From a virus (lineage: Duplodnaviria > Caudoviricetes): a stretch of 64,000 bases of DNA. The stretch lies in the IMG/VR virus record IMGVR_UViG_2871105481_000001, positions 1 through 64,000 of that record. One strand, written 5' to 3'. The notes below the pieces were generated by a model that was not told where the DNA came from, did not search any database, and saw only the letters and a program-made list of their open reading frames with translations. The position numbers and the translations under genes were made by a program. The stretch's first letter is position 1. Each line of letters starts with the position of its first letter. Positions 15,961 through 64,000 of this stretch are shown in pieces.

Positions 15961-18120
15961 TTATAAAGCCGATTTAAATACTTGATAAGAATTATTAATA
16001 AAATAAATGCTATATTTTCCTCTTGTATTTAAATTAACTGAAGTATTTGTTGTTGAATCAAAAGTTATATTCTTAGTTGAATTTAATGTAACTGTGTTAC
16101 TGTCTAGTTTTAGTAATGTTATTTCCATACTATAAATAGAATCATTTAAACTCGGAAGAACTAATGTAGTATTTGCACTACTATGTGCTATTAAACCTGT
16201 ATTAGGCTGTATATTAACTGTTCCTGAGTTTGTTATATTATTTCCTGAATAGTATATTGAAGTAACTAATAACTTATCAATATACCCACCATACATCTTA
16301 GAGTCTAAATCTGTCTTACCTTCTATATTTTCACCTGCAATACCAACAAACTTATCTCTAAAACCTCCTGGATTACCTCCTGATTTATTATAATAACCAT
16401 AAATTGCAGTATTACCAGTTTGAACACTACCTATATCTCCGCCTAAATATTTTGTTGCAAATCCTATATCGAAGGCACTAGAAATGATTCCATTAGTTCC
16501 AATGCCAGCAGATGATACAATCGTATTTGCCGATGTTCTACCAGTAACATTTATAAACGCACCATTCACATATTCAGTACTGCCTGAGTTTAGTGATGTA
16601 AGCCTAATTGCTGGACTTACTAAACTTCCAGAATAAAATGAAAGTGAATTATCTGATTCATTTATTTCTAATCTTGTTCCTGAATCATTGGTTTTTAAGT
16701 TTCTAACACCTAGATTTTCAATATAAGCAGCTTCTGCTAAAAAAATTCCTGTAGCTATAAAATCAAAAGTTCTATCTGCTACATTCCAATATTGAGGATT
16801 TGTTGGTAAAGTGCCTATTGGAATAATTCCTGCATCTGTTCTTGATACATACCATACTCCATTATAAATTACAGCTTCAACTCTTTTAGAATCTCCTATA
16901 TATTGCACTGTGTTTTTCCAAGAACCTCTTGGTGCTACAAACAAATCTGAAACTGGGCCTGTATCACCCTTATCGCCTTTCGGACCCACATCCCCTTTCG
17001 GACCCGGAACCCCTTGATCTCCTCTTTCTCCAGTTGACCTTACGGGTACACTCCATGTTCCTATCAATGAATTATCACTACCTTTTTTAGTTGCAATAGT
17101 CATCCAAAGAATTTCTAATGAATTTAACGTTGGAGGTTTAATTGTCCATCCACTAGGAACACTCTGATTTACATCTATTTCTGGTGGAGTTGTGTAAGAA
17201 CCATTTTTCGCAAATCTTTGTTCTGGATAATTACCTTTTTCCCCTTCTTCTCCCTTCTCCCCTTTTATTTTACTAACACTCCAACTACCCCAATTACCAT
17301 TAGAAAACTTTCTAATAGCCATCCATATAGAATCTTCTCTTGCATCATTGTACCAATTCTCTGGATTTAAAGTTGGATCACTTGGATTTAATAATAATGA
17401 AGAAAATTCAAAATCAATATCTTTAGTATCTGATAATAATCTTGGTATAGACCATAATGGCTGTTGAGGACTTTCACCATTCATTGTGAATATCCTAGTA
17501 GACATATAAATTGGTTTATTACCTGAAGGGATACCATCACTCCAGCCATTTGTTGTAGGTATTGGACTATTCCAACTACCACCAGTAGGAATACTTGGTA
17601 TACTATTACTTCTTATAAACGCAATTGATTTTAAAGCTCCATTACTATTGTCTCCATTTTCGCCATTAGTTCCAGCTTTTACTTTAGTAATAATATATGA
17701 AGTATACAAAGGACTATTACCTCCCTTTTCAGCAATAATATCTACACTACCATTATCTCCAGTCAATATTGATACATTTACATTCCCAGATAACGAATCT
17801 ATACTACCAACACAATTATAAAAAGTAGCTTTAAATGTCCATTGAGATTCTAGATTACCATCTTTATAAACATTAGCCTTAGTAGATGGAATTGGACTTG
17901 TAATATCTCCATTACTTTTTGATGGAATTAGAGAAAATTCTTTTGTTAACTTTAAAGAATAATTATCTATTTCTCTATTTTTAACTTTTACTCTAGTTCT
18001 ATTCTTATCAACAATAAATAATTCGCACTTTTCTGAATCAAGTGGCAATATATATAGCGAATTTGGCTTTATAGCCTCATTCTCGTTTTTAATTATTTCA
18101 ACATTTTTAAATTGTTTCAT
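15961..18120 (-). CDS. tail fibre protein with collagen-like repeats
   Basis: G-X-Y runs 'GEKGEEGEKG' and 'GERGDQGVPGPKGDVGPKGDKGDTGP'; repeated 'W(S)xP' modules. Confidence 0.8.
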   Translation of the reverse strand: MKQFKNVEIIKNENEAIKPNSLYILPLDSEKCELFIVDKNRTRVKVKNREIDNYSLKLTKEFSLIPSKSNGDITSPIPSTKANVYKDGNLESQWTFKATFYNCVGSIDSLSGNVNVSILTGDNGSVDIIAEKGGNSPLYTSYIITKVKAGTNGENGDNSNGALKSIAFIRSNSIPSIPTGGSWNSPIPTTNGWSDGIPSGNKPIYMSTRIFTMNGESPQQPLWSIPRLLSDTKDIDFEFSSLLLNPSDPTLNPENWYNDAREDSIWMAIRKFSNGNWGSWSVSKIKGEKGEEGEKGNYPEQRFAKNGSYTTPPEIDVNQSVPSGWTIKPPTLNSLEILWMTIATKKGSDNSLIGTWSVPVRSTGERGDQGVPGPKGDVGPKGDKGDTGPVSDLFVAPRGSWKNTVQYIGDSKRVEAVIYNGVWYVSRTDAGIIPIGTLPTNPQYWNVADRTFDFIATGIFLAEAAYIENLGVRNLKTNDSGTRLEINESDNSLSFYSGSLVSPAIRLTSLNSGSTEYVNGAFINVTGRTSANTIVSSAGIGTNGIISSAFDIGFATKYLGGDIGSVQTGNTAIYGYYNKSGGNPGGFRDKFVGIAGENIEGKTDLDSKMYGGYIDKLLVTSIYYSGNNITNSGTVNIQPNTGLIAHSSANTTLVLPSLNDSIYSMEITLLKLDSNTVTLNSTKNITFDSTTNTSVNLNTRGKYSIYFINNSYQVFKSAL

Positions 18121-24186: not shown

Positions 24187-27100
24187 CTACTTTTTATTCT
24201 GCTTTATAACATTTTCGTACTCAGAAAATACTGCTTTTGATAATATCTTTTGAGATTGTAGTTGTTCAAAAAATCTTCTTTTTTCTGTTGATGACATACC
24301 TTCTGAGTATGTATAAATAAGCAATGCTTTATTCTTAACATTATTATTTGTTCCATATTTCACATCAAATACCATAGATGAAATACCATCTTTTTTGACA
24401 AGTGATTTAATTCGGTTAACTAAATCTTTTTGTATAACTGGATCTTTAGAATATCCTTCTATATCTGCAATTAAAGATTTTTCGTTTTTCAACAATTCAT
24501 TTACTGAACCATATTTACTTAATATCTGTTTAGCTTTATTACGAGTTTCACCATATTCATCAGTATTTTTATCTAACTGTTCTTGAACCAATGCTTTTTT
24601 ATTTAGTTGTCTATTAAAATCTGAAGTTTCACTTAAGATCCTTTTTATAAATGAATCATAAATTACTCCTGCCCTTTTCTTAGCATCTACATCTGTTACT
24701 ATAGCATCTGCTCCACCATACATTATACCAACAAATGGATTGGTCTGGGGGGATGTTATGATACTTTCAACTAATGCTTTCAATCTTACTGGTGAATCAT
24801 CTAATGCTTTTCCTAATTCCTTATAGAACTCTTCTACATTTGCTTTATCAGCACCTTCATATTTCCGGCTAACCTTACCAATATCAAAAGATAATGGTTG
24901 TTCTCTAAATGTATCATACCCAGTGTAATATTGTGTTAAACCTTTACTTGCAGGATTACTACCAATTAATTTAAATGCAGCATCAAAGTAACTTTGTGAT
25001 TTACTAGGATCTTCTAATGCTGATGCTAAATGTGTTGGATCAATATTATCACCTAATGCTTTTGTAAAATTCTTCCAGGTATTTTTTATACTTCCTCTTT
25101 TAGTCATCCCAACTGAACTACGGATATGATCTTCATAAGCCCCTTCAAATAGAATTGATATTGGTGTTAATTGTTGGGCTTTTGCAATTCTTAAAACTTT
25201 CCATTGTTTTTCTTCTTTATCCCATCCTACAGGAATATTCCAATAATTCATTTTTTGAGAAGGAGAAATTCCATCAAGGAAATCTGCATATGATTTATTT
25301 ACAGGTTCATCTTCTTTTTCTGGAGGTCTAATTAATCCCATAATGAAATTAATCATTAAATGCATTCCTAATACAGGTAATCCAGCTGCTTGGATTATTC
25401 TCACTGAGGTATCAAGTGGATTTCTTTTTATAGCCTCCACCATTACTCTTGTACCTTGCGTTGCAGCGTTTAGATATGGAATAACAGCTTCAGCAGATTT
25501 TGTAAATGTTCCACCCTGGTTGAAATCTAATAACCCTCTTGATGAGGCAACAGCTTCATAATACATATTATTTTTGTCTTCATTAGATAATTCTTCAACA
25601 GATTTGTAAGATGTATTATTTAGCTTATTATATACTTTCAGTTGGTTTTGAAGTGATCTATCAAATACTGCAACTCTAAACATTGTTTCACTATAATTTG
25701 ATAAAGACTTTAATCTTGCGAAATTGAATAAAGTACTTAATGTTTTTTTAGATTTTGGATCAATTCTACTATCAAAATAATTCCCAATAGTTTTATTAAG
25801 AGATGTTAAATCTTTAATTTCACCTTGTTGATTAAGCCACTCCATTCCTCCACCATACTCTAAATATTTAGTTAATAAAGTTGTTTTATTACTATTACGA
25901 TGTTTATAAATCTCACCAATAGCTTTTATTGAATCTTTAGTTAACTGTGCTCCTGCCCTCAATAAAAAACTATTATATTCAGGCGAGAATAATAATGCAT
26001 GAACAAAGTCTCGTGGTGTATTTGTAAATACAAAACCTGGGTTGTTTCCAGTTGCAAATGCTTTAACAAGTCTACTTCCAGACCATGTAGAAATAGTCTT
26101 AGCTAAATCTGAATTAACTAACTTGTCCATAGTGTCATGCCACATTTTATGAAATTCTTCTTTCATGAATACCTGTTGACGAACACCATTCTCATAATAG
26201 TAAGCAATTTTATAACCTTCTGGTGTTGTAGATTCATACTTAGGCTTACCACTTTCAGTAAATCCAATTATTCTATTTTCTTTAATATTACTTTGTAATT
26301 GTTTGAAATATTTATAGAACTTCTTATCACTCTCTGCAATATTATCCGAATTAATAGATTCATACTTTGCTTTAGCGTCTGGGTAATACTTAGTAAAGAA
26401 TGTTCTATTTATTTCATTCATCCCAATAGCCTTATATCTACTGGCTAATGTTGATTGAATTAACCATTTAGAATCCATTAACATATCAGATGCATCTCCT
26501 TCTGATAAACCTATAATTTGCTCTTTAGATAAATTTCCATTTTCATTTCTAAACATGGTTCTATCTGATGACATTAATTCTCCATCAGCATCTAATATAT
26601 AACGTAGGAATTTTCTTGGTTGGTAGTCTACATCTTTTAATTCTTTATATACTTCATTACTTATAAGCCCACTTTCTTGCATATCAGATAAGATGGTTTT
26701 AAAAGCATCAAAATAAGCATCAGCCCTTTTATTAAGTTTTGTAAACGCATCTTCTCCAATTTCAGATTTATATGCATCCAATGCTTTCTGTGCTGTACTT
26801 GCATCTTGGTATCCTGGATGATCTATAACTGGTAATCCCTTTTCTTCACGATTTTTATCAATTGCAAGAAATCTTTTTGCAGCTATTATTTTATCTAGTA
26901 ATTCTAATTCTGATCTGTTAAGTCCATCATATACACTTTTTTGAACTTTATCAAATTTTTCTTTGGCAATTGTAGAAGATCCTGCATAAGCAATCATTCT
27001 ATTTGAAACTGCTTTTGCACCAATGTTTTCTAAAATTCTCTTTGGTATAAATTGTCTATCAACACCAGATACTATTCCACGTTCTACTTTATTTTTCAAC

Positions 27101-30100
27101 CAGGCTCTAAACTTTTGATTAAATGACATAACGTTACCATTTTCATCTTTAAACCTTTTAGTTAAAACTTCTTTCGAAGATTTATAAGAATCATCTAGTT
27201 TTTTTCTTGCTTCTTCAGGCGAAATAGTTTTATTAACTAATCTATTATAAGCTGACTCTACCATTCTTTGTTCATCAATAGAATTAAAAGAATCTTTAAT
27301 TTCCTGTAATGATTTACCAGAATTAAATTGTTGTTCAACAGTTTGGCTTACTTCATTATATTTATCAGTCGTTCTCTCTATTTGAGTTTTATTTCGTTCT
27401 TCTGCTTTCGTATTAATTTTATTAAATAATTCTGTAAACTTGTTGAAGTTTGAAATTGAATTACGGGTGCTTAGAATTCCAGTTGCAGCTTTTAGTAAAC
27501 GCGAAACTTCAGTTGGAGTTATCTTCCCACTAATCATATTTTGATTAAGGAAAATTACAGTGTTATCATATGCTTCTTTTGCTTGCCTTTTTCTTTCTGC
27601 GACCTTTTCTCTATATGATTTATTAGATTTCCTTAATTCTTCAATTTTATTTTTATAATTCTCATGTATCTTCTCAATTTTATTGAAGGCAATTTCTTTT
27701 TCTTTTTTAGAAGTTTGTTCTTTTACTTTTTCAACAGCAGTTTTTTTCTTATTAATCTGATCTTCACGATGAAGAATAACTTGCTCTTGCATAAGTTTTG
27801 TTATTCCTTCACTGTCAATTAAAGCTTTCTGTTTATCAGATAAACTTTTATAAAATGCAGACTCTTTAAATTTAGCTAACCCAGCCTCAATACCATTTGT
27901 TTCAGTTTCATTTAATACTTCTTGAATAGTTGATACTGGCATAAGTTTTTTAATCATAAATCTTACACCAGAATATGCTTGAAGATTAATTGAACCATCA
28001 GCTTCCTTTAATCTATTTATATGTTCATCAATAGACTTCTGTAATTGAAACTCTTGTTTTAATTCTGTGTTGTTTTTAAAACCAAACAATCCTTTTATAT
28101 ATTCTACAATTCTTGTTAATAAAGGTTTTGGTTCAGGATTATTCAAATAGTCTAAATAATTATCAACTTCTGATTTAAAGTTGTCATTGGCAATATATTC
28201 AGCTATGAATTCATAATTATTAGAATAGCCATAAGCATTTGTTTTATTCGGATTCTTTAATGCTTCTTCGTAAGCTGAACGTGCTTCATTTCTAAATGTA
28301 AGTTCTTGTTCATTTAATTGTGAAGAGTCTATATTATCAGCTAGGTAGTATGAAGTGAAAACATGTGCTAATTCATGTTGTACTAATTTTGTTTTAAGAA
28401 AATTATTTAAATCTGTAGCTCCTTCTTTGATATAAATTGAATTTCCTTTCGCCTCACCTATTGCATCATTAAAAACTTGGGTAACAATGCCATCTAAAAG
28501 CTCTTGTCTTAAATATGATTCTTGATAAGTACCATTATCTATTAGAACTTGATAATCCTTCAATAAGCCATCAACATATGAGTTTATTTCTTTTTCTGAT
28601 TTATTGAATAAATTTTCATTTATAACATAAATTTTAGTATCAAATTTTCTTGCAAGATTCGCTATATCGTCTGAAATATTATATCCTTTTGCAATTAATT
28701 CATCTATACTAGTAGTATTATCTCCAAAGAAATTTGATAATTCAACATCATCTTTTATCTTTAGCTTATTTGTATTATCTGTCCTAATAGAGAAATTAAC
28801 ATTATTTATACTAGGATTTTTAAATCCATTAATTAGGTCTATAGTTTCTTTTAAGAATTTAACATTGTTTGAATTTATATCTTCAGTTAATAATTTGATA
28901 GAATCTGTATTTTTATCATATCTAATTTTAACAATAGAATCACCAATATTTATATTATCTCTTAGTACTTCAATTATTCCCTGCTTATTTATATATTTAA
29001 TACCATCATAATTATTTAGTAATCTCGCTCTTAATCTATTAATATTATTTAATGCAAATCCTGTTTTTATTGTATTTATTTTATCAGATGAGTTCTCTTC
29101 ATTTAATGAAAGTATTAAAGCAATATTTTTATTATTAGAATTCTTTAAAGCAGTTAAAAATTCTAACCTATCCTTAGTTTTTTTACCGTCTTCATAATTA
29201 TCAAAAACGGCAACTGGATCTTGAATATTATCTACTATATTTCTTAAATTCTGAATATCTGAAATTTCATGTTTACTTTGTTTAATGATTTTATTAAATA
29301 AATATGATAAATTAACATTCATTTCATTATCAGAAACCCCTATTGATTTAAGTAAAGTACTTGGTCGCCCTAAATCAATTGTATAATTCTCATCATTAAA
29401 TCTGCTTTCTTTTACAATTCTAATTGTATTTTCATTAGTTAGTTCTCCATTTTTTAACTTCTCCTTATTTTTAAGGAATGTACTGTATTCTTTAATATGT
29501 CTTTTAGTAGATTCTGCAATATTATTAAGCTCATTACTCCCTAAACTATAATTAATATTAGATGATTTTGAATTTTCAGAACTTAATATTTTTTCATTCA
29601 TTAAGTCACCTAAAACTTTATTTGTAAAGTTATTTAAAGATATATTTGGATTTAAATTACCAATACCTAATACATCACCTATCTTATTGAAAAAGGCTCT
29701 AAACCACTGTACAAATTCAGCCATTTTCCCCCTAGCCTGACGTTCTTGAAATTGCCATTCTCCATAGTTACCTATATGAGTATTTAATGCTTCATTCCAT
29801 AATTCGTTATCAGATAAATTATTATAATTACCTTCATATTTTAATCTATTGAATATTTCTTTTCCGGTTTTAGTCTGTTTTAATAGTTCAACTCCATTTT
29901 TAAATCTACTTGGCATTAACTGTTCCCATAAATGGGAAAACTCATGTATTGGAGTATTAGCATTTAGATATTCAGGGTTAATATAAATAGTACCATCTGG
30001 TAACTTTGCTCCATAAATAGTACCATTATTTTGCATGAATTTTATATCATTATCACTTACAACTACATTGTTTGAACTTAGTTCATCTAAATTATTAATA

Positions 30101-33100: not shown

Positions 33101-34731
33101 GAGTCTTCTTTATTTACTCTTGTAAATATTTTATTTACATCAGATGTAATACTATCATTTTGTTGTACATTTTTTATATTATTCTGAATACTATTCTGAA
33201 CAGTATTTATTTGATTTACATACTGATTTACTAAATTAAAATCACCAGTTTCTGCTGCTGACTGGACATTATATTTTAGATTATATATATTATTTTGTTT
33301 AGCTTCAATATCTAATAATTCTTTCTGATTAGTCCAGTTAGAAAATGCATTCCAAATATTCTTTCTATTTCTCTGTCCATTTGTATTATTTCTAATACTC
33401 TGATCTGTTCTAGTGTACAACTGGCCTTCTTCACTATCTAAAAATTCCCCAAATAGTTTTTTAAGATCATAGTTCTTTTCAACTTCTAAATAGAATTTAT
33501 TCTCCGCAACATCATCTGGCATGATTTCATTATCTGAACCCAATCTATTACTAAAGTCATCAAAGGCGGTTTGTTTTTGATTATCCATCATCGAAGACAA
33601 TACACTTTGAGCTTTATCTAAATAAAATTCATCTGGCTTATTATAACGTCTACTTACCATATCATATACTTGTTGGTAAGTTGCATTTGGATAAGATCCT
33701 AATTCTTGTTGTGTTTCAAGCGTAATTTGAAGTTCTTTTCTTCCTTCTGGTGTTTGAAGATAATTTGATCTATCTTCTTCTGTTACTAGATATCCGTATT
33801 TATCAAAAAGTGAATTTGTGTATTTTTCAAGATCAGTTAATTCCGGTTTATCAGGTGATAACTTTTGTTTAGCAGCTTCATAGTTATTTCCTTCAACATA
33901 TTTTTCAGATTCTTTTGTGAAATATTCTGCACCATTCTTAGTTATTTCAAAAGCAGGCAAACCATTTTCTAAAGTAGCTCTTGTACCATCTTTGAGATAT
34001 GAAGGCTTTATGTATCCTTTCGATTCTAGATCTTTTGCATATGATTCTGGATCATTAATATTAGCTCCTGTAAAATCCTGATAAGAATAATCTAATAGTT
34101 CTCCAGGTTTATATTGTCTTGGAGATAAATAATTTTTTGGTAATTGAGTAAAATCTACTTTAGATTCATATGGTAAATAAATATTAGGAACAGTTACACC
34201 ACTATTAAAAGTAGTTGTATTATTATTTGGATTATCATTTGGAAAACTAATCGTACCTACTTTACTTTTAGCATTACCATTTTCATCCAAAACTAGATTA
34301 TCCATATTACCTTTATAGGATAATGGATTCTGAGTATTTATAGGTAAATTAGTTGTAAACGGAGTGCCATTATTTCCAGACGTTAAAGCTGATTCTGAAT
34401 TTGAATTTACCAAGTTGGAAACTCCATTCTGTTGATCTAATTGATTCTGATTTAGGTCTAATTGTGAATCTATTGGAACACTTAATGTTTCTTGTTGTGT
34501 ATTTTGCCCTATTGAAATAGGATTTATATTTTCTCTGTTGTTGGATGTTGACAAGCCTTGTGAGCTTAATAAGCCTGTATTTGTATCGTCTTTTTTTTTT
34601 AATGAAGTTGTATCTTGAATTAAAGCTGAGAAATCATTAGGCTCAAGATAGGACTGCATGTTTAAAAAGTCTTCTAATGATAAGTTACCACCATTACTTT
34701 GGTATTGTAGATAAAGTTCTTCTGGATTCAT
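24187..34731 (-). CDS. giant polyvalent virion ejection protein (ART-like, two HExxH metallopeptidase-like, PBECR/MuF-C-like and LPD38-like domains)
   Basis: 3514 aa. 'IHEFSHLW' (29932-29946), 'QHELAHVF' (28363-28377), 'DLGRPS...IQDPVAVFD...IKTGF', C-terminal 'LDFNQGG...IPYLNAATQG'. Confidence 0.8.
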   Translation of the reverse strand: MNPEELYLQYQSNGGNLSLEDFLNMQSYLEPNDFSALIQDTTSLKKKDDTNTGLLSSQGLSTSNNRENINPISIGQNTQQETLSVPIDSQLDLNQNQLDQQNGVSNLVNSNSESALTSGNNGTPFTTNLPINTQNPLSYKGNMDNLVLDENGNAKSKVGTISFPNDNPNNNTTTFNSGVTVPNIYLPYESKVDFTQLPKNYLSPRQYKPGELLDYSYQDFTGANINDPESYAKDLESKGYIKPSYLKDGTRATLENGLPAFEITKNGAEYFTKESEKYVEGNNYEAAKQKLSPDKPELTDLEKYTNSLFDKYGYLVTEEDRSNYLQTPEGRKELQITLETQQELGSYPNATYQQVYDMVSRRYNKPDEFYLDKAQSVLSSMMDNQKQTAFDDFSNRLGSDNEIMPDDVAENKFYLEVEKNYDLKKLFGEFLDSEEGQLYTRTDQSIRNNTNGQRNRKNIWNAFSNWTNQKELLDIEAKQNNIYNLKYNVQSAAETGDFNLVNQYVNQINTVQNSIQNNIKNVQQNDSITSDVNKIFTRVNKEDSEAQDFQARVLNGDGIARTQNILGQVVLGLGQSAIDASSGILRILTTPFSQDVKDSADQLSEPLKLGNIEISPLRTNVTKYSDNSGRVFEERNGKLFQIENGIYKPVSNISGLKETGKDSEYNPSGMAFLTGKMAGDILITNEVGGLINNTITNNAISLASKTTQAFGAESEIAKQARNFARYAQGANSIENKSVSGWFVQMYNDSYKSAEDSGISSTAGKTVYATVNSFIQSLIQRINPDSKFLSGFNNEYKQLLSSLSTSNGERILANAKSLFSKIGDNVVGETKEELIQQVVGDMTNYVTNIIYGSDFKLTDSEGYKDVVVGTIVPSAIASLMGGSGSRNIKLGNNEINLSNYNRSQLLTELSRFDGANNMLKVMSNDSSFDSFSNTLDDVKNEVLTRQKYINKIPDSQNYSTDYLDSAIKVLQQLETKRNDLNQADAAFKPRIESEISSLESQVDQILNQKPTNENTTSTEQTSERTQGQETENNTVNPDENNKTKISESALEALWRKIYFQNRDGSILTLGYGMFPKTMKDILNAGLQNRFFAHGMGKSGLGGSLKELLNLFDNGIDKNRGNGFLYTAPLEGSGAASSGIGAGAAYSNGSFMLISTDPEIKDINQVQGILVNDGLVEEYPELLNDLQNRFPNLSINKFSEGLKVANEIDEKNAQTTKNKNEKQGNPQNDIRQNTQQPEQQSSINENASVESTNSPTEAIRQNENTQTSNISEEVNFDDLLARINKISDDQTRSSTNSNERVQYAPDINQEQQTSNSETVQANELPGSTNQVEVNPNDLRSQETSVSNELNPNKTRLSENVIATTKEIRLPDGDNGYRVTVTDNNGNLIEDRNGDSEFDFSDQTEVDKFINQKQRGFSLSKQSKIKTEVPVTESTSSSNYIGKRVSFNQFGDTRSGVVESENKGRLTIKGDDGKTYFTGSPLVQNLKDESGNPIQLQKSSENFTPISQEEFDSLIEKLKKPFSKTFKNLKITTDWNEFIKNKNTLDGINNLDELSSNNVVVSDNDIKFMQNNGTIYGAKLPDGTIYINPEYLNANTPIHEFSHLWEQLMPSRFKNGVELLKQTKTGKEIFNRLKYEGNYNNLSDNELWNEALNTHIGNYGEWQFQERQARGKMAEFVQWFRAFFNKIGDVLGIGNLNPNISLNNFTNKVLGDLMNEKILSSENSKSSNINYSLGSNELNNIAESTKRHIKEYSTFLKNKEKLKNGELTNENTIRIVKESRFNDENYTIDLGRPSTLLKSIGVSDNEMNVNLSYLFNKIIKQSKHEISDIQNLRNIVDNIQDPVAVFDNYEDGKKTKDRLEFLTALKNSNNKNIALILSLNEENSSDKINTIKTGFALNNINRLRARLLNNYDGIKYINKQGIIEVLRDNINIGDSIVKIRYDKNTDSIKLLTEDINSNNVKFLKETIDLINGFKNPSINNVNFSIRTDNTNKLKIKDDVELSNFFGDNTTSIDELIAKGYNISDDIANLARKFDTKIYVINENLFNKSEKEINSYVDGLLKDYQVLIDNGTYQESYLRQELLDGIVTQVFNDAIGEAKGNSIYIKEGATDLNNFLKTKLVQHELAHVFTSYYLADNIDSSQLNEQELTFRNEARSAYEEALKNPNKTNAYGYSNNYEFIAEYIANDNFKSEVDNYLDYLNNPEPKPLLTRIVEYIKGLFGFKNNTELKQEFQLQKSIDEHINRLKEADGSINLQAYSGVRFMIKKLMPVSTIQEVLNETETNGIEAGLAKFKESAFYKSLSDKQKALIDSEGITKLMQEQVILHREDQINKKKTAVEKVKEQTSKKEKEIAFNKIEKIHENYKNKIEELRKSNKSYREKVAERKRQAKEAYDNTVIFLNQNMISGKITPTEVSRLLKAATGILSTRNSISNFNKFTELFNKINTKAEERNKTQIERTTDKYNEVSQTVEQQFNSGKSLQEIKDSFNSIDEQRMVESAYNRLVNKTISPEEARKKLDDSYKSSKEVLTKRFKDENGNVMSFNQKFRAWLKNKVERGIVSGVDRQFIPKRILENIGAKAVSNRMIAYAGSSTIAKEKFDKVQKSVYDGLNRSELELLDKIIAAKRFLAIDKNREEKGLPVIDHPGYQDASTAQKALDAYKSEIGEDAFTKLNKRADAYFDAFKTILSDMQESGLISNEVYKELKDVDYQPRKFLRYILDADGELMSSDRTMFRNENGNLSKEQIIGLSEGDASDMLMDSKWLIQSTLASRYKAIGMNEINRTFFTKYYPDAKAKYESINSDNIAESDKKFYKYFKQLQSNIKENRIIGFTESGKPKYESTTPEGYKIAYYYENGVRQQVFMKEEFHKMWHDTMDKLVNSDLAKTISTWSGSRLVKAFATGNNPGFVFTNTPRDFVHALLFSPEYNSFLLRAGAQLTKDSIKAIGEIYKHRNSNKTTLLTKYLEYGGGMEWLNQQGEIKDLTSLNKTIGNYFDSRIDPKSKKTLSTLFNFARLKSLSNYSETMFRVAVFDRSLQNQLKVYNKLNNTSYKSVEELSNEDKNNMYYEAVASSRGLLDFNQGGTFTKSAEAVIPYLNAATQGTRVMVEAIKRNPLDTSVRIIQAAGLPVLGMHLMINFIMGLIRPPEKEDEPVNKSYADFLDGISPSQKMNYWNIPVGWDKEEKQWKVLRIAKAQQLTPISILFEGAYEDHIRSSVGMTKRGSIKNTWKNFTKALGDNIDPTHLASALEDPSKSQSYFDAAFKLIGSNPASKGLTQYYTGYDTFREQPLSFDIGKVSRKYEGADKANVEEFYKELGKALDDSPVRLKALVESIITSPQTNPFVGIMYGGADAIVTDVDAKKRAGVIYDSFIKRILSETSDFNRQLNKKALVQEQLDKNTDEYGETRNKAKQILSKYGSVNELLKNEKSLIADIEGYSKDPVIQKDLVNRIKSLVKKDGISSMVFDVKYGTNNNVKNKALLIYTYSEGMSSTEKRRFFEQLQSQKILSKAVFSEYENVIKQNKK

Positions 34732-48860: not shown

Positions 48861-49494
48861 CTTCAGTCGTAAAATATGGTGGAAAATACAACGTCATAAT
48901 AACGGCATTGAGAAAAAGAAATTTGAAGTTGTAAATAAAAATGGTGTTAAGAAATATAATTTTCTTATTGGTGAAAGCGAACAAGTTAAAAATATCATTA
49001 ATGAAAGGCTTAATGAACTTGGATGGACGTTTCCTTACTTTCAAAGTCAGATGTACAAAAAATACCGGACACTTAAAAAAGATAGTGAAAGGTACTTAAA
49101 AGGAGAAATGTCAATTCCATTATTTGAATTCTTTAATATGATGGAAGTTTTAAACATTGAAATTTCTTTAAAACCAAAAGATAACTTATTCACTTCATCC
49201 TATGAAAGAGGTATAGTTATTATTAACCGCAATTATTTTCCAAGATTCTACTTATCATTTCCATTAAAAAAAGTAACTGACTTTCATGTACACTTTCAAG
49301 ATAATTTAGAAGAAAACATTAAGAATAAATCTCTTGAATACTATACAGTAATGCATGAAGCTATACGCTGGTATTTCACTGGTAAAAAGAATGTATACAA
49401 GCCTATGGAACTTAAAAGAGAATTTATGAAACAATATTTCAAGAATGATCAAAATATATTATTTGATACAAAAGAAATTGACAGAACAAAATAA
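48850..49494 (+). CDS. protein with central XRE-like HTH
   Basis: 'INERLNELGWTF...SERYLKGEMSIPLFEFFNMMEVLNIEI'. Confidence 0.55.
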   Translation: MNSNFSRKIWWKIQRHNNGIEKKKFEVVNKNGVKKYNFLIGESEQVKNIINERLNELGWTFPYFQSQMYKKYRTLKKDSERYLKGEMSIPLFEFFNMMEVLNIEISLKPKDNLFTSSYERGIVIINRNYFPRFYLSFPLKKVTDFHVHFQDNLEENIKNKSLEYYTVMHEAIRWYFTGKKNVYKPMELKREFMKQYFKNDQNILFDTKEIDRTK

Positions 49495-49505
49495 AATATT
49501 ACAAA

Positions 49506-49961
49506 ATGAAACAACTAAAGATTGAAATTCCTGAAGGATTTAAAGTAGATGAATTTAATCCAGAATCAGGTATTATTAAATTCAAACCTATACCACAGAA
49601 TATTAAAGATATAATTAAAACACTAGATGATGTTTATAACTATCATGATATAGATAAAGATGAATTTAACAGAAGGTTCAAATCATGTACTGAAGATGAA
49701 ATTGCCTATAAACATCTAAAGTTAATAACTTCTGCTTTAAACGAAGGTTGGGAACCAGATTGGGGGAATGGACAATGGGATAAGTGGTTCAACTGGTTCA
49801 ACATGCCATCAAAAAATGGCCGGTTCTCGTTCTGCGACTCCTTTAATCGGTACTCGTTTTCGCATTGCTCTGCCCGCCTTTGCTTTAAATCCAAAGACCT
49901 TGCTCAGTACGCTGCAAAGCAATTCTTAGAGGTGTATGAGAAATATATGGTTATTAAGTAA
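49506..49961 (+). CDS. putative DGR target protein 1 (C-terminal variable region)
   Basis: C-terminus 'ALNEGWEPDW...FSFCDSFNRYSFSHCSARLCFKS' is shared with 63583..>64000. Confidence 0.8.
   Translation: MKQLKIEIPEGFKVDEFNPESGIIKFKPIPQNIKDIIKTLDDVYNYHDIDKDEFNRRFKSCTEDEIAYKHLKLITSALNEGWEPDWGNGQWDKWFNWFNMPSKNGRFSFCDSFNRYSFSHCSARLCFKSKDLAQYAAKQFLEVYEKYMVIK
49734..49891 (+). repeat. 158-bp repeat copy 1 (DGR variable region VR1)
   Basis: 144/158 identical to 63841..63998 by manual alignment. Confidence 0.9.
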
Positions 49962-49973
49962 ACTCTTAGTTTT

Positions 49974-50198
49974 ATGAAGCATATATTATACATAGTAATT
50001 TGTTTAGCAGGTATAATTTCATTAATATTTTTTTTGGAATCAAAATCTAATAAAGTAAAAAGTGCAAAACTTCAATGTGAATTAGGAATGAATCTATACA
50101 AACTATAAATAACTAAATATAAAGGAAATTTTAAAAAGTCAGATTCAGCATATAATTCAGATATAGATAGAATACTAAATGATATTTATAAAAAATAA
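49974..50198 (+). pseudogene. small membrane-anchored protein gene with internal TAA
   Basis: ATG 49974, in-frame TAA 50106-50108; the frame continues to TAA 50196-50198, which abuts the next ATG. Confidence 0.55.
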
Positions 50199-51227: not shown

Positions 51228-51623
51228 ATGAGAATAATTATAGCAGGATCAAGGGATTTTAATGACTATGAATTTCTTAAAAATAAGTTGGATGAAATTG
51301 TAGCAACTAAAAATAATGTAGAGATAGTTTGTGGTATGGCAAAAGGCGCAGATTTATTAGGTAAACGATATGGAGAAGAAAGAAACTTTTGCGTTCACGA
51401 ATATCCTGCCGAATGGAATAATATAGAAGATAAACATCCAGGAGAAATTAAATCAAATCAAAATGGAAGATACTGGATAAGAGCCGGAATAGTTAGAAAT
51501 GAAACTATGGCACAGAATGCAGATATGTTAGTAGCATTTATAGTTAACAAATCTTCTGGAACTTCTAACATGATTGAATTAGCTAAAAAGTATAAGTTGA
51601 AAACAATTGTAATAGATATTTAA
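51228..51623 (+). CDS. SLOG / YspA-like (DUF2493) protein
   Basis: 'IIIAGSRDF', 'IVCGMAKGAD', 'AGIVRNETM', 'SSGTSNMI'. Confidence 0.85.
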   Translation: MRIIIAGSRDFNDYEFLKNKLDEIVATKNNVEIVCGMAKGADLLGKRYGEERNFCVHEYPAEWNNIEDKHPGEIKSNQNGRYWIRAGIVRNETMAQNADMLVAFIVNKSSGTSNMIELAKKYKLKTIVIDI

Positions 51624-63582: not shown

Positions 63583-64000
63583 ATGAAGAATTTAGAAATC
63601 ACTCAAGAAGCAGCAGTAAAAGCATACTCTGAAGCTTCAAAAAATGGAAAACTATTACTAGAAAATCTTTTTGGAAAAAATGTATTTCTTGTAGATATTA
63701 AAGAAAGAATTAAATCTATTGAAGATGCAATTAATGAACTTGGAGAAAATGATGATGAAGTAATTGTATTAAGAGCCTTAGAAGTAGCTGGTATAAGTAA
63801 TCATATTTTATATACACAATGGTTAGTAGTTATTACCAAAGCTCTAAACGAAGGTTGGGAACCAGATTGGGGGAATGGACAATGGGATAAGTGGTTCAAC
63901 TGGTTCAATATGCCATCAAAAAATGGCCGGTTCTCGTTCTACTGCTCCAATTATCAGTACTCGGTTTCGGTTTGCGCTTCCCGCCTTTGCTTTAAATCAA
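63583..64000 (+). CDS. putative DGR target protein 2 (runs off the window)
   Basis: Open from ATG 63583 to the window end: ...ALNEGWEPDW...FSFYCSNYQYSVSVCASRLCFKS. Confidence 0.8.
   Translation, partial: MKNLEITQEAAVKAYSEASKNGKLLLENLFGKNVFLVDIKERIKSIEDAINELGENDDEVIVLRALEVAGISNHILYTQWLVVITKALNEGWEPDWGNGQWDKWFNWFNMPSKNGRFSFYCSNYQYSVSVCASRLCFKS
63841..63998 (+). repeat. 158-bp repeat copy 2 (DGR variable region VR2)
   Basis: 144/158 identical to 49734..49891. Confidence 0.9.

What the first reader, a model, noticed from the sequence alone, without database searches (positions are those of the whole stretch)
49506..49961. Remote second DGR target in the middle-gene operon: diversified proteins are small, cytoplasmic and non-virion
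Seen: both target genes are short (one is 151 aa) with different N-termini, no signal peptide or TM segment, and lie in early/middle operons (beside HTH, HAD and integrase genes), 14 kb apart and far from the tail genes. The tail spike and fibre show no such repeat. Established: the best-studied phage DGR (Bordetella BPP-1 Mtd) diversifies a receptor-binding protein through a C-terminal CLec-type VR. Inference: one TR feeds two intracellular binding proteins, possibly anti-defence or host-takeover adaptors rather than tropism determinants.
Basis: partly seen in the sequence, partly recalled or inferred. Interest (0 to 1): 0.8.

Follow-up and report, generated by a model that had tools for sequence, protein, structure and literature searches.

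The report
Remote DGR target: small hypervariable phage protein
A prophage of Elizabethkingia uses one mutagenic reverse-transcriptase cassette to keep rewriting a short stretch in three small soluble paralogous proteins, one of them 14 kb away. This is real and still active, but it is a further example of a published kind of phage system whose protein function is still unknown.

Summary
Gene 49506-49961 (151 aa) carries a 65-nt variable repeat (VR-A, 49818-49882). VR-A matches a template repeat (TR, record 64492-64556) that lies just past the window end, upstream of a DGR-type reverse transcriptase (64620-65624). All 16 mismatches fall on TR adenines.

There are three targets, not two: A, B (63583-64068) and C (64080-64451). 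No tail gene carries the repeat.

The remote target is in current use. In two related E. anophelis prophages its VR follows that genome's own TR variants, and orthologues differ almost only at the variable codons.

The proteins belong to phrog_11581, with 4258 clusters at 50% identity. They are soluble, with no signal peptide or membrane segment. The AlphaFold models are confident but match no solved fold, the C-type lectin fold included. Across Mu-like and other phages the family sits among early, replication or methylase genes.

The idea is not new. Benler 2021 described a remote non-structural DGR target in Quimbyvirus. I show that the LoVEphage homologue is such a target. Roux 2021's 'Phage_other' PC_00007 fits this family.

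'Non-virion' is supported by gene context only, and an anti-defence role is untested. This scan had already noted the DGR on an overlapping window of the same genome.

The parts
49506..49961 (+). Target gene A (151 aa), the remote DGR target; member of phrog_11581
   Evidence: ORF. phrog_11581 E 1.7e-16. No Pfam, NCBIfam or PADLOC hit. AlphaFold pLDDT 88.
49818..49882 (+). VR-A, codons 105-126 of protein A (GRFSF......RLC). The variable codons are 110, 111, 113-116, 118, 120, 122 and 123.
   Evidence: 16 of 16 mismatches to the TR fall on TR adenines. The orthologous VRs in two other genomes track their own TRs.
49737..49927 (+). About 190-nt tract around VR-A that is kept nearly identical to paralogue B: 81 nt upstream at 98% and 45 nt downstream at 91%. 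This is a gene-conversion tract.
   Evidence: In a third genome the same tract copies paralogue C instead.
63583..64000 (+). Target gene B, cut by the window end. The whole gene is record 63583-64068 (161 aa).
   Evidence: phrog_11581 E 2e-25. AlphaFold pLDDT 88.
63925..63989 (+). VR-B
   Evidence: 15 of 15 mismatches fall on TR adenines.
63990..64000 (+). Marker for the parts that lie beyond the window end. Record numbering equals window numbering. The parts are gene C 64080-64451 (123 aa) with VR-C 64308-64372, the TR 64492-64556, the RT 64620-65624 (334 aa) and a 98-aa ORF 65611-65907.
   Evidence: - Locus L004 = record 62000-72248.
- Gene C: phrog_11581 E 1.8e-27.
- VR-C: 16 of 16 mismatches at TR adenines.
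- RT: RVT_1 E 2.6e-20, phrog_1423 E 3.5e-118, IGNYLSQ and YADD motifs.
- 98-aa ORF: phrog_19665; its homologue follows the RT in 40 of 47 related loci.

Best explanation
This is a diversity-generating retroelement (DGR) of a temperate Elizabethkingia phage. Its only targets are three paralogous small soluble proteins of family phrog_11581.

Shown:
- One TR next to the RT matches a 65-nt VR in genes A, B and C with adenine-only mismatches. Seventeen adenines in seven AAY codons, one CAG, one ACT and one ACC allow about 1e10 peptides.
- The remote gene A, 14.6 kb upstream of the TR, is rewritten as often as the proximal genes.
- The 81 nt before and about 45 nt after VR-A are repeatedly homogenised by gene conversion with a cassette-proximal paralogue.
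- The VR ends in the conserved CGC-CTT-TG (R-L-C) boundary, which in the TR always reads CAC-CTA-TG.

Inferred:
- The conversion of the flanks keeps the remote VR competent for homing.
- The TR transcript is reverse-transcribed with adenine mutagenesis by the RT, perhaps helped by the 98-aa ORF in place of Avd.
- The cDNA replaces any of the three VRs, with the conserved VR 3' boundary acting as the IMH (the site where mutagenic homing starts).
- The proteins are non-virion ligand-binding proteins made together with early or accessory genes. Their hypervariable loop lets them bind changing partners inside the infected or lysogenic cell, in phage-host or phage-phage conflict.
For: DGR anatomy.

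Ongoing use of the remote VR:
- Among nine VRs from three genomes, 17 of 21 TR adenine sites vary.
- The only three non-adenine sites that vary are exactly where that genome's own TR differs. In GCA_032911765 the TR has ACC-ACT, and all three VRs, the remote one included, have GCC-GCT. In GCA_025196745 the TR has a new adenine (TCA), and the remote VR alone has TCC there.
- Orthologues of A at 78-91% identity differ mainly at the variable codons.

Gene conversion of the flanks.

The architecture recurs:
- 47 of 80 IMG/VR loci have 2-3 family genes, then TR, RT and a ~99-aa ORF.
- There, 94 of 104 family genes are adenine-specific targets, with 1292 of 1316 mismatches on TR adenines.
- Remote targets occur at 4-8 kb within these loci.
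- In three further records the family gene has no RT within 10 kb, yet it matches the TR beside the record's RT: G002, G007 and G009, about 38 kb apart in G002.

Non-structural context:
- Here, the + strand block from 46750 onwards holds HNH, SLOG, RuvC, Ant and integrase-like genes.
- Elsewhere, the neighbours are a repressor, MuA/MuB transposase genes, DnaB, DnaC, a helicase and a methyltransferase.
- In phage Versailles the neighbours are recombination and replication genes.
- In LoVEphage they are methyltransferases, RtcB and a nuclease.

Solubility: no membrane or signal segment in the family; 2 of 157 and 2 of 117 members exceed the hydropathy threshold.

Precedent: Benler 2021; Roux 2021 class PC_00007 'non-structural/unknown'.
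Against: - There is no direct evidence on location or timing. Virion proteins also lack signal peptides, and small accessory virion proteins can be encoded outside the structural module.
- In LoVEphage the same TR also feeds a tail collar fibre, so the two VR scaffolds tolerate the same peptide. A receptor-related role cannot be excluded.
- The target proteins have no hit to any defence or anti-defence model.
- The VR stretch itself is modelled with low confidence (pLDDT 53-68), so surface exposure is not shown.
- No Avd and no conserved hairpin after the VRs were found, so the homing signals are inferred.
- CheckV rates the record 63% complete, so a further target outside it cannot be ruled out.
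Confidence: 0.6

Rival explanations
1. The small proteins are virion-associated: tail or baseplate accessory proteins, or detachable receptor-binding adaptors. On this reading the DGR still serves tropism, as in BPP-1, and the genes simply lie outside the structural module.
For: - In LoVEphage one TR feeds both a tail collar fibre and the phrog_11581 member.
- The VR stretch of the LoVEphage and Versailles members hits the C-terminus of 'tail protein' phrog_5302 (E 1e-6 to 1e-7).
- Lack of a signal peptide is equally expected for virion proteins.
- Tandem and fused two-copy forms would suit an oligomeric fibre tip.
Against: - In every context examined the family sits on the early, replication or DNA-modification strand, far from head and tail genes, in at least three unrelated phage architectures.
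- In this prophage and in 47 IMG/VR loci no structural gene lies in the cassette.
- Roux 2021 report only 1.6% of PC_00007 predicted as structural, if that cluster is this family.
- The phrog_5302 hit covers only the ~45 residues encoded by the shared repeat.
Confidence: 0.2
2. The proteins are made by the prophage in the lysogen and act as diversified sensors or blockers of incoming phages. That would be superinfection exclusion or defence, not counter-defence by the infecting phage.
For: - The cassette lies next to integrase-like genes and near the prophage end.
- The family is mostly found in temperate or Mu-like phages and proviruses.
- Intracellular DGR-diversified sensors are discussed for cyanobacteria (cited in Benler 2021).
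Against: - There is no effector domain: the minimal form is 123 aa.
- There is no PADLOC hit.
- The genes are co-oriented with lytic early genes, not with the repressor, which is divergent in related loci.
Confidence: 0.15
3. The shared 3' end of A and B is only a relic of a duplication or gene conversion, and the remote copy is no longer a DGR substrate.
For: A and B share a ~190-nt tract that is 91-98% identical outside the variable sites, while their 5' halves are unrelated.
Against: - VR-A differs from VR-B at 12 sites, all TR adenines.
- In two other genomes the remote VR carries that genome's TR-specific non-adenine changes, and it shows mutagenesis of a newly arisen TR adenine.
- Orthologues vary at the variable codons.
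- Conversion is recurrent and uses different donors.
Confidence: 0.03

Closest known systems
Quimbyvirus / LoVEphage DGR (Benler et al. 2021, PMC8008677; LoVEphage MW660583.1)
   Same: - One TR serves a remote, non-structural target on a different transcription unit.
- The LoVEphage remote target is a phrog_11581 member (E 3.6e-47). It lies 15.5 kb from the TR, with adenine-specific mismatches.
- The authors already proposed a role in phage-host conflict.
   Different: - There the primary target is a tail collar fibre next to the RT, and the small protein is the secondary target. Here all three targets are small proteins and no structural gene is targeted.
- The host is Elizabethkingia (Weeksellaceae), not Bacteroides.
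- That LoVEphage equals Quimbyvirus is inferred from the matching published description, not tested.
Roux et al. 2021 target cluster PC_00007 ('Phage_other', non-structural/unknown; PMC8144416)
   Same: - PC_00007 is viral, with FCB-group hosts.
- Its VR lies at 0.72-0.77 of the protein length (0.74 here).
- It is often a 'Secondary' target beside a structural one, and is rarely predicted as structural.
   Different: Equivalence could not be proved because no sequences of the cluster were available. That survey could not see remote targets on short contigs.
Bordetella phage BPP-1 DGR (Mtd, Avd, bRT)
   Same: - A TR next to the RT.
- Adenine-specific mutagenesis of in-frame AAY codons.
- A VR in the 3' part of the gene, with a fixed VR/TR difference at the 3' boundary.
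   Different: - Its target is a C-type lectin tail-fibre protein with the VR at the extreme C-terminus. Here the targets are 123-161-aa proteins with no C-Lec match and an internal VR followed by two helices.
- There are three targets instead of one.
- No Avd is present. A conserved ~98-aa ORF follows the RT.
Multi-target and remote-target cellular DGRs (surveyed by Wu et al. 2018, PMC5758913)
   Same: Several paralogous VRs are served by one TR, some of them far from the RT.
   Different: According to Roux 2021, cellular DGR targets are mostly membrane-anchored or signal-peptide-bearing proteins. These targets are phage-encoded and lack any export signal.

Membership tests
Diversity-generating retroelement (DGR) | Reverse transcriptase of the DGR type (RT domain with [ILV]GxxxSQ and YxDD motifs) | tested here: met
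   RVT_1 E 2.6e-20. phrog_1423 E 3.5e-118. IGNYLSQ and YADD are visible in the translation. Scores are far below the NCBIfam cut-offs for group II intron, retron and Drt RTs. That the motif is diagnostic rests on my own knowledge of the DGR literature.
Diversity-generating retroelement (DGR) | TR/VR pair whose mismatches fall on TR adenines | tested here: met
   16/16, 15/15 and 16/16 mismatches fall on the 21 adenines of the 65-nt TR; P 3e-11 to 3e-10.
Diversity-generating retroelement (DGR) | VR inside a protein-coding gene, with TR adenines at codon positions 1 and 2 (AAY codons) | tested here: met
   The TR reads in frame with seven AAC/AAT codons, and all three VRs are in the same frame.
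Diversity-generating retroelement (DGR) | Evidence of activity: VRs follow their own TR and vary between close relatives | tested here: met
Diversity-generating retroelement (DGR) | Accessory protein Avd and an IMH with a downstream hairpin (common in DGRs but not universal) | tested here: inconclusive
   There is no ORF between gene C and the RT. The 98-aa ORF after the RT has no Avd hit in Pfam, NCBIfam or PHROGs. A fixed VR/TR difference exists at the 3' boundary. No hairpin is shared by the three VRs.
C-type lectin-fold DGR variable proteins (Mtd, TvpA, TaqVP type) | The VR-bearing domain has the C-Lec fold | tested here: inconclusive
   Models of A and B (pLDDT 88) give no Foldseek PDB match (A only; best E 1.4) and best VIA Z scores of 3.7 and 4.4, none to a C-Lec chain. 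No FGE-sulfatase or DUF1566 hit appears in 117 members at E <= 1. A profile search against PDB sequences finds nothing. The VR stretch itself is poorly modelled.
C-type lectin-fold DGR variable proteins (Mtd, TvpA, TaqVP type) | VR at the extreme C-terminus of the protein | tested here: not met
   VR-A spans residues 105-126 of 151 and is followed by two helices at 130-148. The median VR centre is 0.74 across 94 targets.
phrog_11581 (PHROGs v4, unknown function) | Significant match to the family HMM | tested here: met
   E 1.7e-16 (A), 2e-25 (B) and 1.8e-27 (C). A profile of the family finds 4258 clusters at 50% identity at E <= 1e-3.
Roux 2021 PC_00007 'Phage_other' | Sequence membership in the cluster | not testable with these tools
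   Only tables are held, not sequences. VR position, host group and viral origin agree.
Known anti-phage defence or anti-defence families | Match to a PADLOC model or a named anti-defence family | tested here: not met
   No PADLOC, Pfam or NCBIfam hit for A, B or C.

The most novel reading that the evidence does not exclude
phrog_11581 is a second, non-lectin scaffold for DGR hypervariation. On this reading, phages with a DGR dedicated to it carry an intracellular, antibody-like repertoire of small binders. The repertoire is kept homing-competent at several loci by gene conversion, and it is used against host defence proteins or rival phages, not for adsorption.
Probability: 0.3. Interest if true: 0.8.

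Novelty: new member of a known kind. Interest (0 to 1): 0.45.

Why it matters
Phage DGRs are usually read as tropism devices. This family is large: 4258 clusters at 50% identity, mostly viral. It is routinely DGR-targeted, often in two or three copies and at remote loci, and it is encoded among early, replication or DNA-modification genes. It has no assigned fold or function.

Elizabethkingia strains can be grown in the laboratory, so this prophage offers a host in which to ask what non-structural phage DGR targets do.

Two results here may be of general use. The first is tracking of TR variants across related prophages as evidence that a remote VR is in current use. The second is recurrent gene conversion of the VR flanks between remote and proximal paralogues. 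Both bear on how a DGR recruits and keeps distant targets.

Tried and rejected
- Fold assignment. Foldseek against the PDB (model A) and VIA-align against 48,161 chains (models A and B) gave nothing above Z 4.4. BFVD returned only uncharacterised gut-virome and crAss-like proteins, and the ESM Atlas only 'hypothetical protein' clusters.
- Sequence families. Pfam on 117 members at E <= 1, a profile against PDB sequences, NCBIfam and PADLOC all gave nothing for the targets.
- A conserved hairpin after the VRs. A and B share one only because they are near-identical there, and C lacks it.
- The alignment A4 was too diverse for the search for related loci, so I used A3.
- My first TR/VR scan of related loci was confounded by paralogue-paralogue matches and was redone with a cleaner TR window.
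- Cultured phages with virion proteomics carrying the family: none found. Only LoVEphage-like, Versailles, BT-TP2 and partial crAss-like hits appeared.
- In one 154-kb record (G001) a DGR-type RT exists, but the family genes did not match the region fetched around it.

Full report
**1. What is in the sequence**

Window 49734-49891 and 63841-63998 form the only long direct repeat in the window: 158 nt at 91% identity, 14,107 nt apart. The first ~100 nt are nearly identical. The differences then cluster in about 14 codons.

The first copy lies in ORF 49506-49961 (151 aa). The second lies in an ORF that starts at 63583 and runs off the window.

The window is the first 64,000 nt of a 72,248-nt IMG/VR provirus record. 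I fetched record 62000-72248 as L004. It shows the following, in order:
- gene B, ending at 64068 (161 aa);
- a third paralogue, gene C (64080-64451, 123 aa);
- a non-coding repeat copy rich in AAC/AAT (64492-64556);
- a 334-aa reverse transcriptase (64620-65624) 63 nt further on;
- a 98-aa ORF overlapping the RT stop.

The RT has an RVT_1 domain (E 2.6e-20) and matches phrog_1423 (E 3.5e-118). It carries IGNYLSQ and YADD motifs. It scores far below the NCBIfam cut-offs for group II intron, retron and Drt RTs.

**2. It is a DGR with three targets**

Over 65 nt the non-coding copy has 21 adenines. VR-A differs from it at 16 sites, VR-B at 15 and VR-C at 16, and all 47 differences are at adenines of that copy. 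The probability is 3e-11 to 3e-10 per pair. So the non-coding copy is the template repeat (TR).

The TR reads in frame with the genes as seven AAC/AAT codons plus CAG, ACT and ACC. That gives 17 mutable adenines and about 1e10 possible peptides.

Four further adenines are always replaced in the same way in all VRs: AGC-CAG becomes GGC-CGG at the 5' end, and CAC-CTA becomes CGC-CTT at the 3' end. The 3' pair coincides with the family's conserved R-L-C motif. It is the likely boundary between the IMH (the site where mutagenic homing starts) and its TR counterpart IMH*. This last point is inference.

No other copy exists in the record, and none in the tail-fibre-like gene 15961-18120.

**3. The remote target is in current use**

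Related prophages in E. anophelis GCA_032911765.1 (L005, L006) and GCA_025196745.1 (L007, L008) have the same layout, with the A orthologue about 16 kb from B, C, the TR and the RT.

Among the nine VRs, 17 of the 21 TR adenine sites vary. Only three non-adenine sites vary, and each is explained by that genome's own TR:
- Where the TR of GCA_032911765.1 reads ACC-ACT instead of ACT-ACC, all three of its VRs carry the matching change, the remote one included.
- Where the TR of GCA_025196745.1 has gained an adenine (TCG to TCA), the remote VR alone shows TCC.

Orthologues of protein A at 78-91% identity differ mainly at the variable codons.

**4. Concerted evolution of the flanks**

In each of the three genomes, the 81 nt before VR-A are 98-100% identical to a paralogue in the same genome. 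The donor is B in two genomes and C in the third. Yet the A orthologues differ from one another there by 14% and 47%.

In the two genomes where B is the donor, the ~45 nt after VR-A are also 91-100% identical to B. In the third genome that stretch is closest to B (84%), not to C.

So gene conversion repeatedly renews a ~190-nt cassette around the remote VR, and DGR homing then re-diversifies each VR independently. I infer that this conversion keeps the remote copy competent for homing.

**5. The proteins**

A, B and C match phrog_11581, a family of unknown function (E 1.7e-16 to 1.8e-27). They match nothing in Pfam, NCBIfam or PADLOC.

Close homologues are in Elizabethkingia, Chryseobacterium and Soonwooa. 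A profile search finds 4258 clusters at 50% identity at E <= 1e-3. Most are 120-165 aa, and some are fused two-copy forms. The ESM Atlas clusters are mostly viral.

The shared core starts near residue 33 of A. A adds a beta-hairpin at the N-terminus, B adds helices, and C adds nothing.

Hydropathy shows no signal or membrane segment in A, B or C, and in almost none of the family.

AlphaFold models of A and B are confident (pLDDT 88, pTM 0.78 and 0.76). The VR stretch is the exception (block-mean pLDDT 53-68). The models show helices, then a Trp-rich irregular stretch or hairpin, then the VR, then two C-terminal helices.

No solved structure resembles them:
- the best Foldseek hit has E 1.4;
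- the best VIA Z scores are 3.7 and 4.4, with no C-type lectin chain listed;
- Pfam on 117 members and a profile against PDB sequences give nothing.

The VR is internal, with a median centre at 0.74 of the protein. In Mtd-type targets it lies at the extreme C-terminus.

**6. Context here and elsewhere**

In this prophage the virion genes lie at 12-46 kb: a tail-fibre-like gene, terminase, portal, a 3514-aa protein and virion structural proteins. From 46750 onwards, one + strand block holds HNH, gene A, SLOG/YAcAr, RuvC, an Ant-like antirepressor, an integrase-like gene, then B, C, the TR and the RT. The 'HTH' and 'HAD' labels for the immediate neighbours are not supported.

I examined 80 IMG/VR loci holding relatives:
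- 47 have the order family x2-3, TR, RT, and 40 of those 47 also have a ~99-aa ORF right after the RT.
- There, 94 of 104 family genes are adenine-specific targets, with 1292 of 1316 mismatches at TR adenines.
- 39 loci have two or more targets, and several loci have targets 4-8 kb from the RT.

Of ten records with no RT within 10 kb of the family gene, five have a DGR-type RT elsewhere in the record. In three of those (G002, G007, G009) the distant family gene matches the TR with 10-15 adenine-only or nearly adenine-only mismatches. One complete 299-kb phage has the family but no RT.

The recurrent neighbours are a divergent repressor, MuA/MuB transposase genes, DnaB, DnaC, a helicase and a methyltransferase.

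In Bacteroides phage Versailles the member lies among recombination and replication genes. It is annotated 'tail protein' there, but that label rests only on a 45-residue hit to the C-terminus of phrog_5302.

**7. Published precedent**

Benler et al. 2021 (PMC8008677) describe Quimbyvirus. Its one DGR has two targets. One lies by the tail fibres. [quoted passage not shown] The authors conclude that it takes part in phage-host conflict.

I found the same arrangement in LoVEphage MW660583.1:
- A phrog_11581 member (33613-34197, E 3.6e-47) lies among methyltransferases, RtcB and a nuclease.
- It carries a VR that matches the TR at 49393-49500, next to the RT.
- The other VR is in the tail collar fibre gene.

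Roux et al. 2021 (PMC8144416) list a viral, FCB-host target cluster PC_00007, 'Phage_other'. Only 1.6% of it is predicted as structural, its VR lies at 0.72-0.77 of the protein, and it is often a secondary target. This fits the family, but I could not test it by sequence. The same paper says its method misses remote targets.

**8. Verdict**

The reading 'small, soluble, encoded outside the virion module' is supported. 'Non-virion' is probable but rests on gene order alone. An anti-defence or host-takeover role is an open hypothesis that others have already raised for a homologue.

What differs here from the published cases:
- a DGR dedicated entirely to this family, which turns out to be a common architecture;
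- a host outside the gut Bacteroidaceae;
- direct comparative evidence for ongoing homing at a remote site;
- recurrent conversion of the VR flanks;
- two confident models with no lectin-like match.

I rate it a new member of a known kind, of moderate interest. An overlapping window of the same genome had already been noted by this scan.

Noticed in passing
record 65611-65907 (L004:3612-3908), just beyond the window end: A 98-aa ORF (phrog_19665) overlaps the RT stop codon. Its homologue follows the RT in 40 of 47 related IMG/VR loci, and no Avd-like gene is present. It may be the accessory factor of this DGR class.
   Followed up: partly
L090:6863-7444 (Bacteroides phage Versailles ON453897.1, 10181-10762): The gene is annotated 'tail protein', but it is a full-length phrog_11581 member (E 1.3e-78) among recombination and replication genes. 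The label seems to come from a 45-residue VR-like hit to the C-terminus of phrog_5302.
   Followed up: yes
IMG/VR record behind L035 (G001, 154 kb, direct terminal repeats), 26733-27665: A DGR-type RT (57% identical to this one) has six in-frame TAG codons, so this phage probably reads TAG as a residue. The family genes in L035 did not match the region fetched around that RT.
   Followed up: no
L050, L055, L057, L059, L065, L067 and others, versus L058, L060, L066, L073, L078: Loci with the same 129-aa plus 169-aa family pair either have or lack an RT about 450 nt downstream. The RT may have been lost, broken or replaced in part of this phage group.
   Followed up: no
window 49974-50108: A 44-aa ORF with a hydrophobic N-terminal stretch lies directly after gene A. 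It may be a small membrane protein in the same operon.
   Followed up: no
L006:826-1365 (E. anophelis GCA_032911765.1): In a related prophage an ArdA anti-restriction gene lies about 2.6 kb upstream of the B-C-TR-RT cassette. No ArdA was detected in the corresponding part of this window.
   Followed up: no
window 51228-51623: A YAcAr/SLOG-domain protein (PF10686, E 1.2e-17) with a weak PADLOC ShosA hit (E 3.4e-5) lies 1.3 kb downstream of gene A, followed by a RuvC-like resolvase.
   Followed up: no
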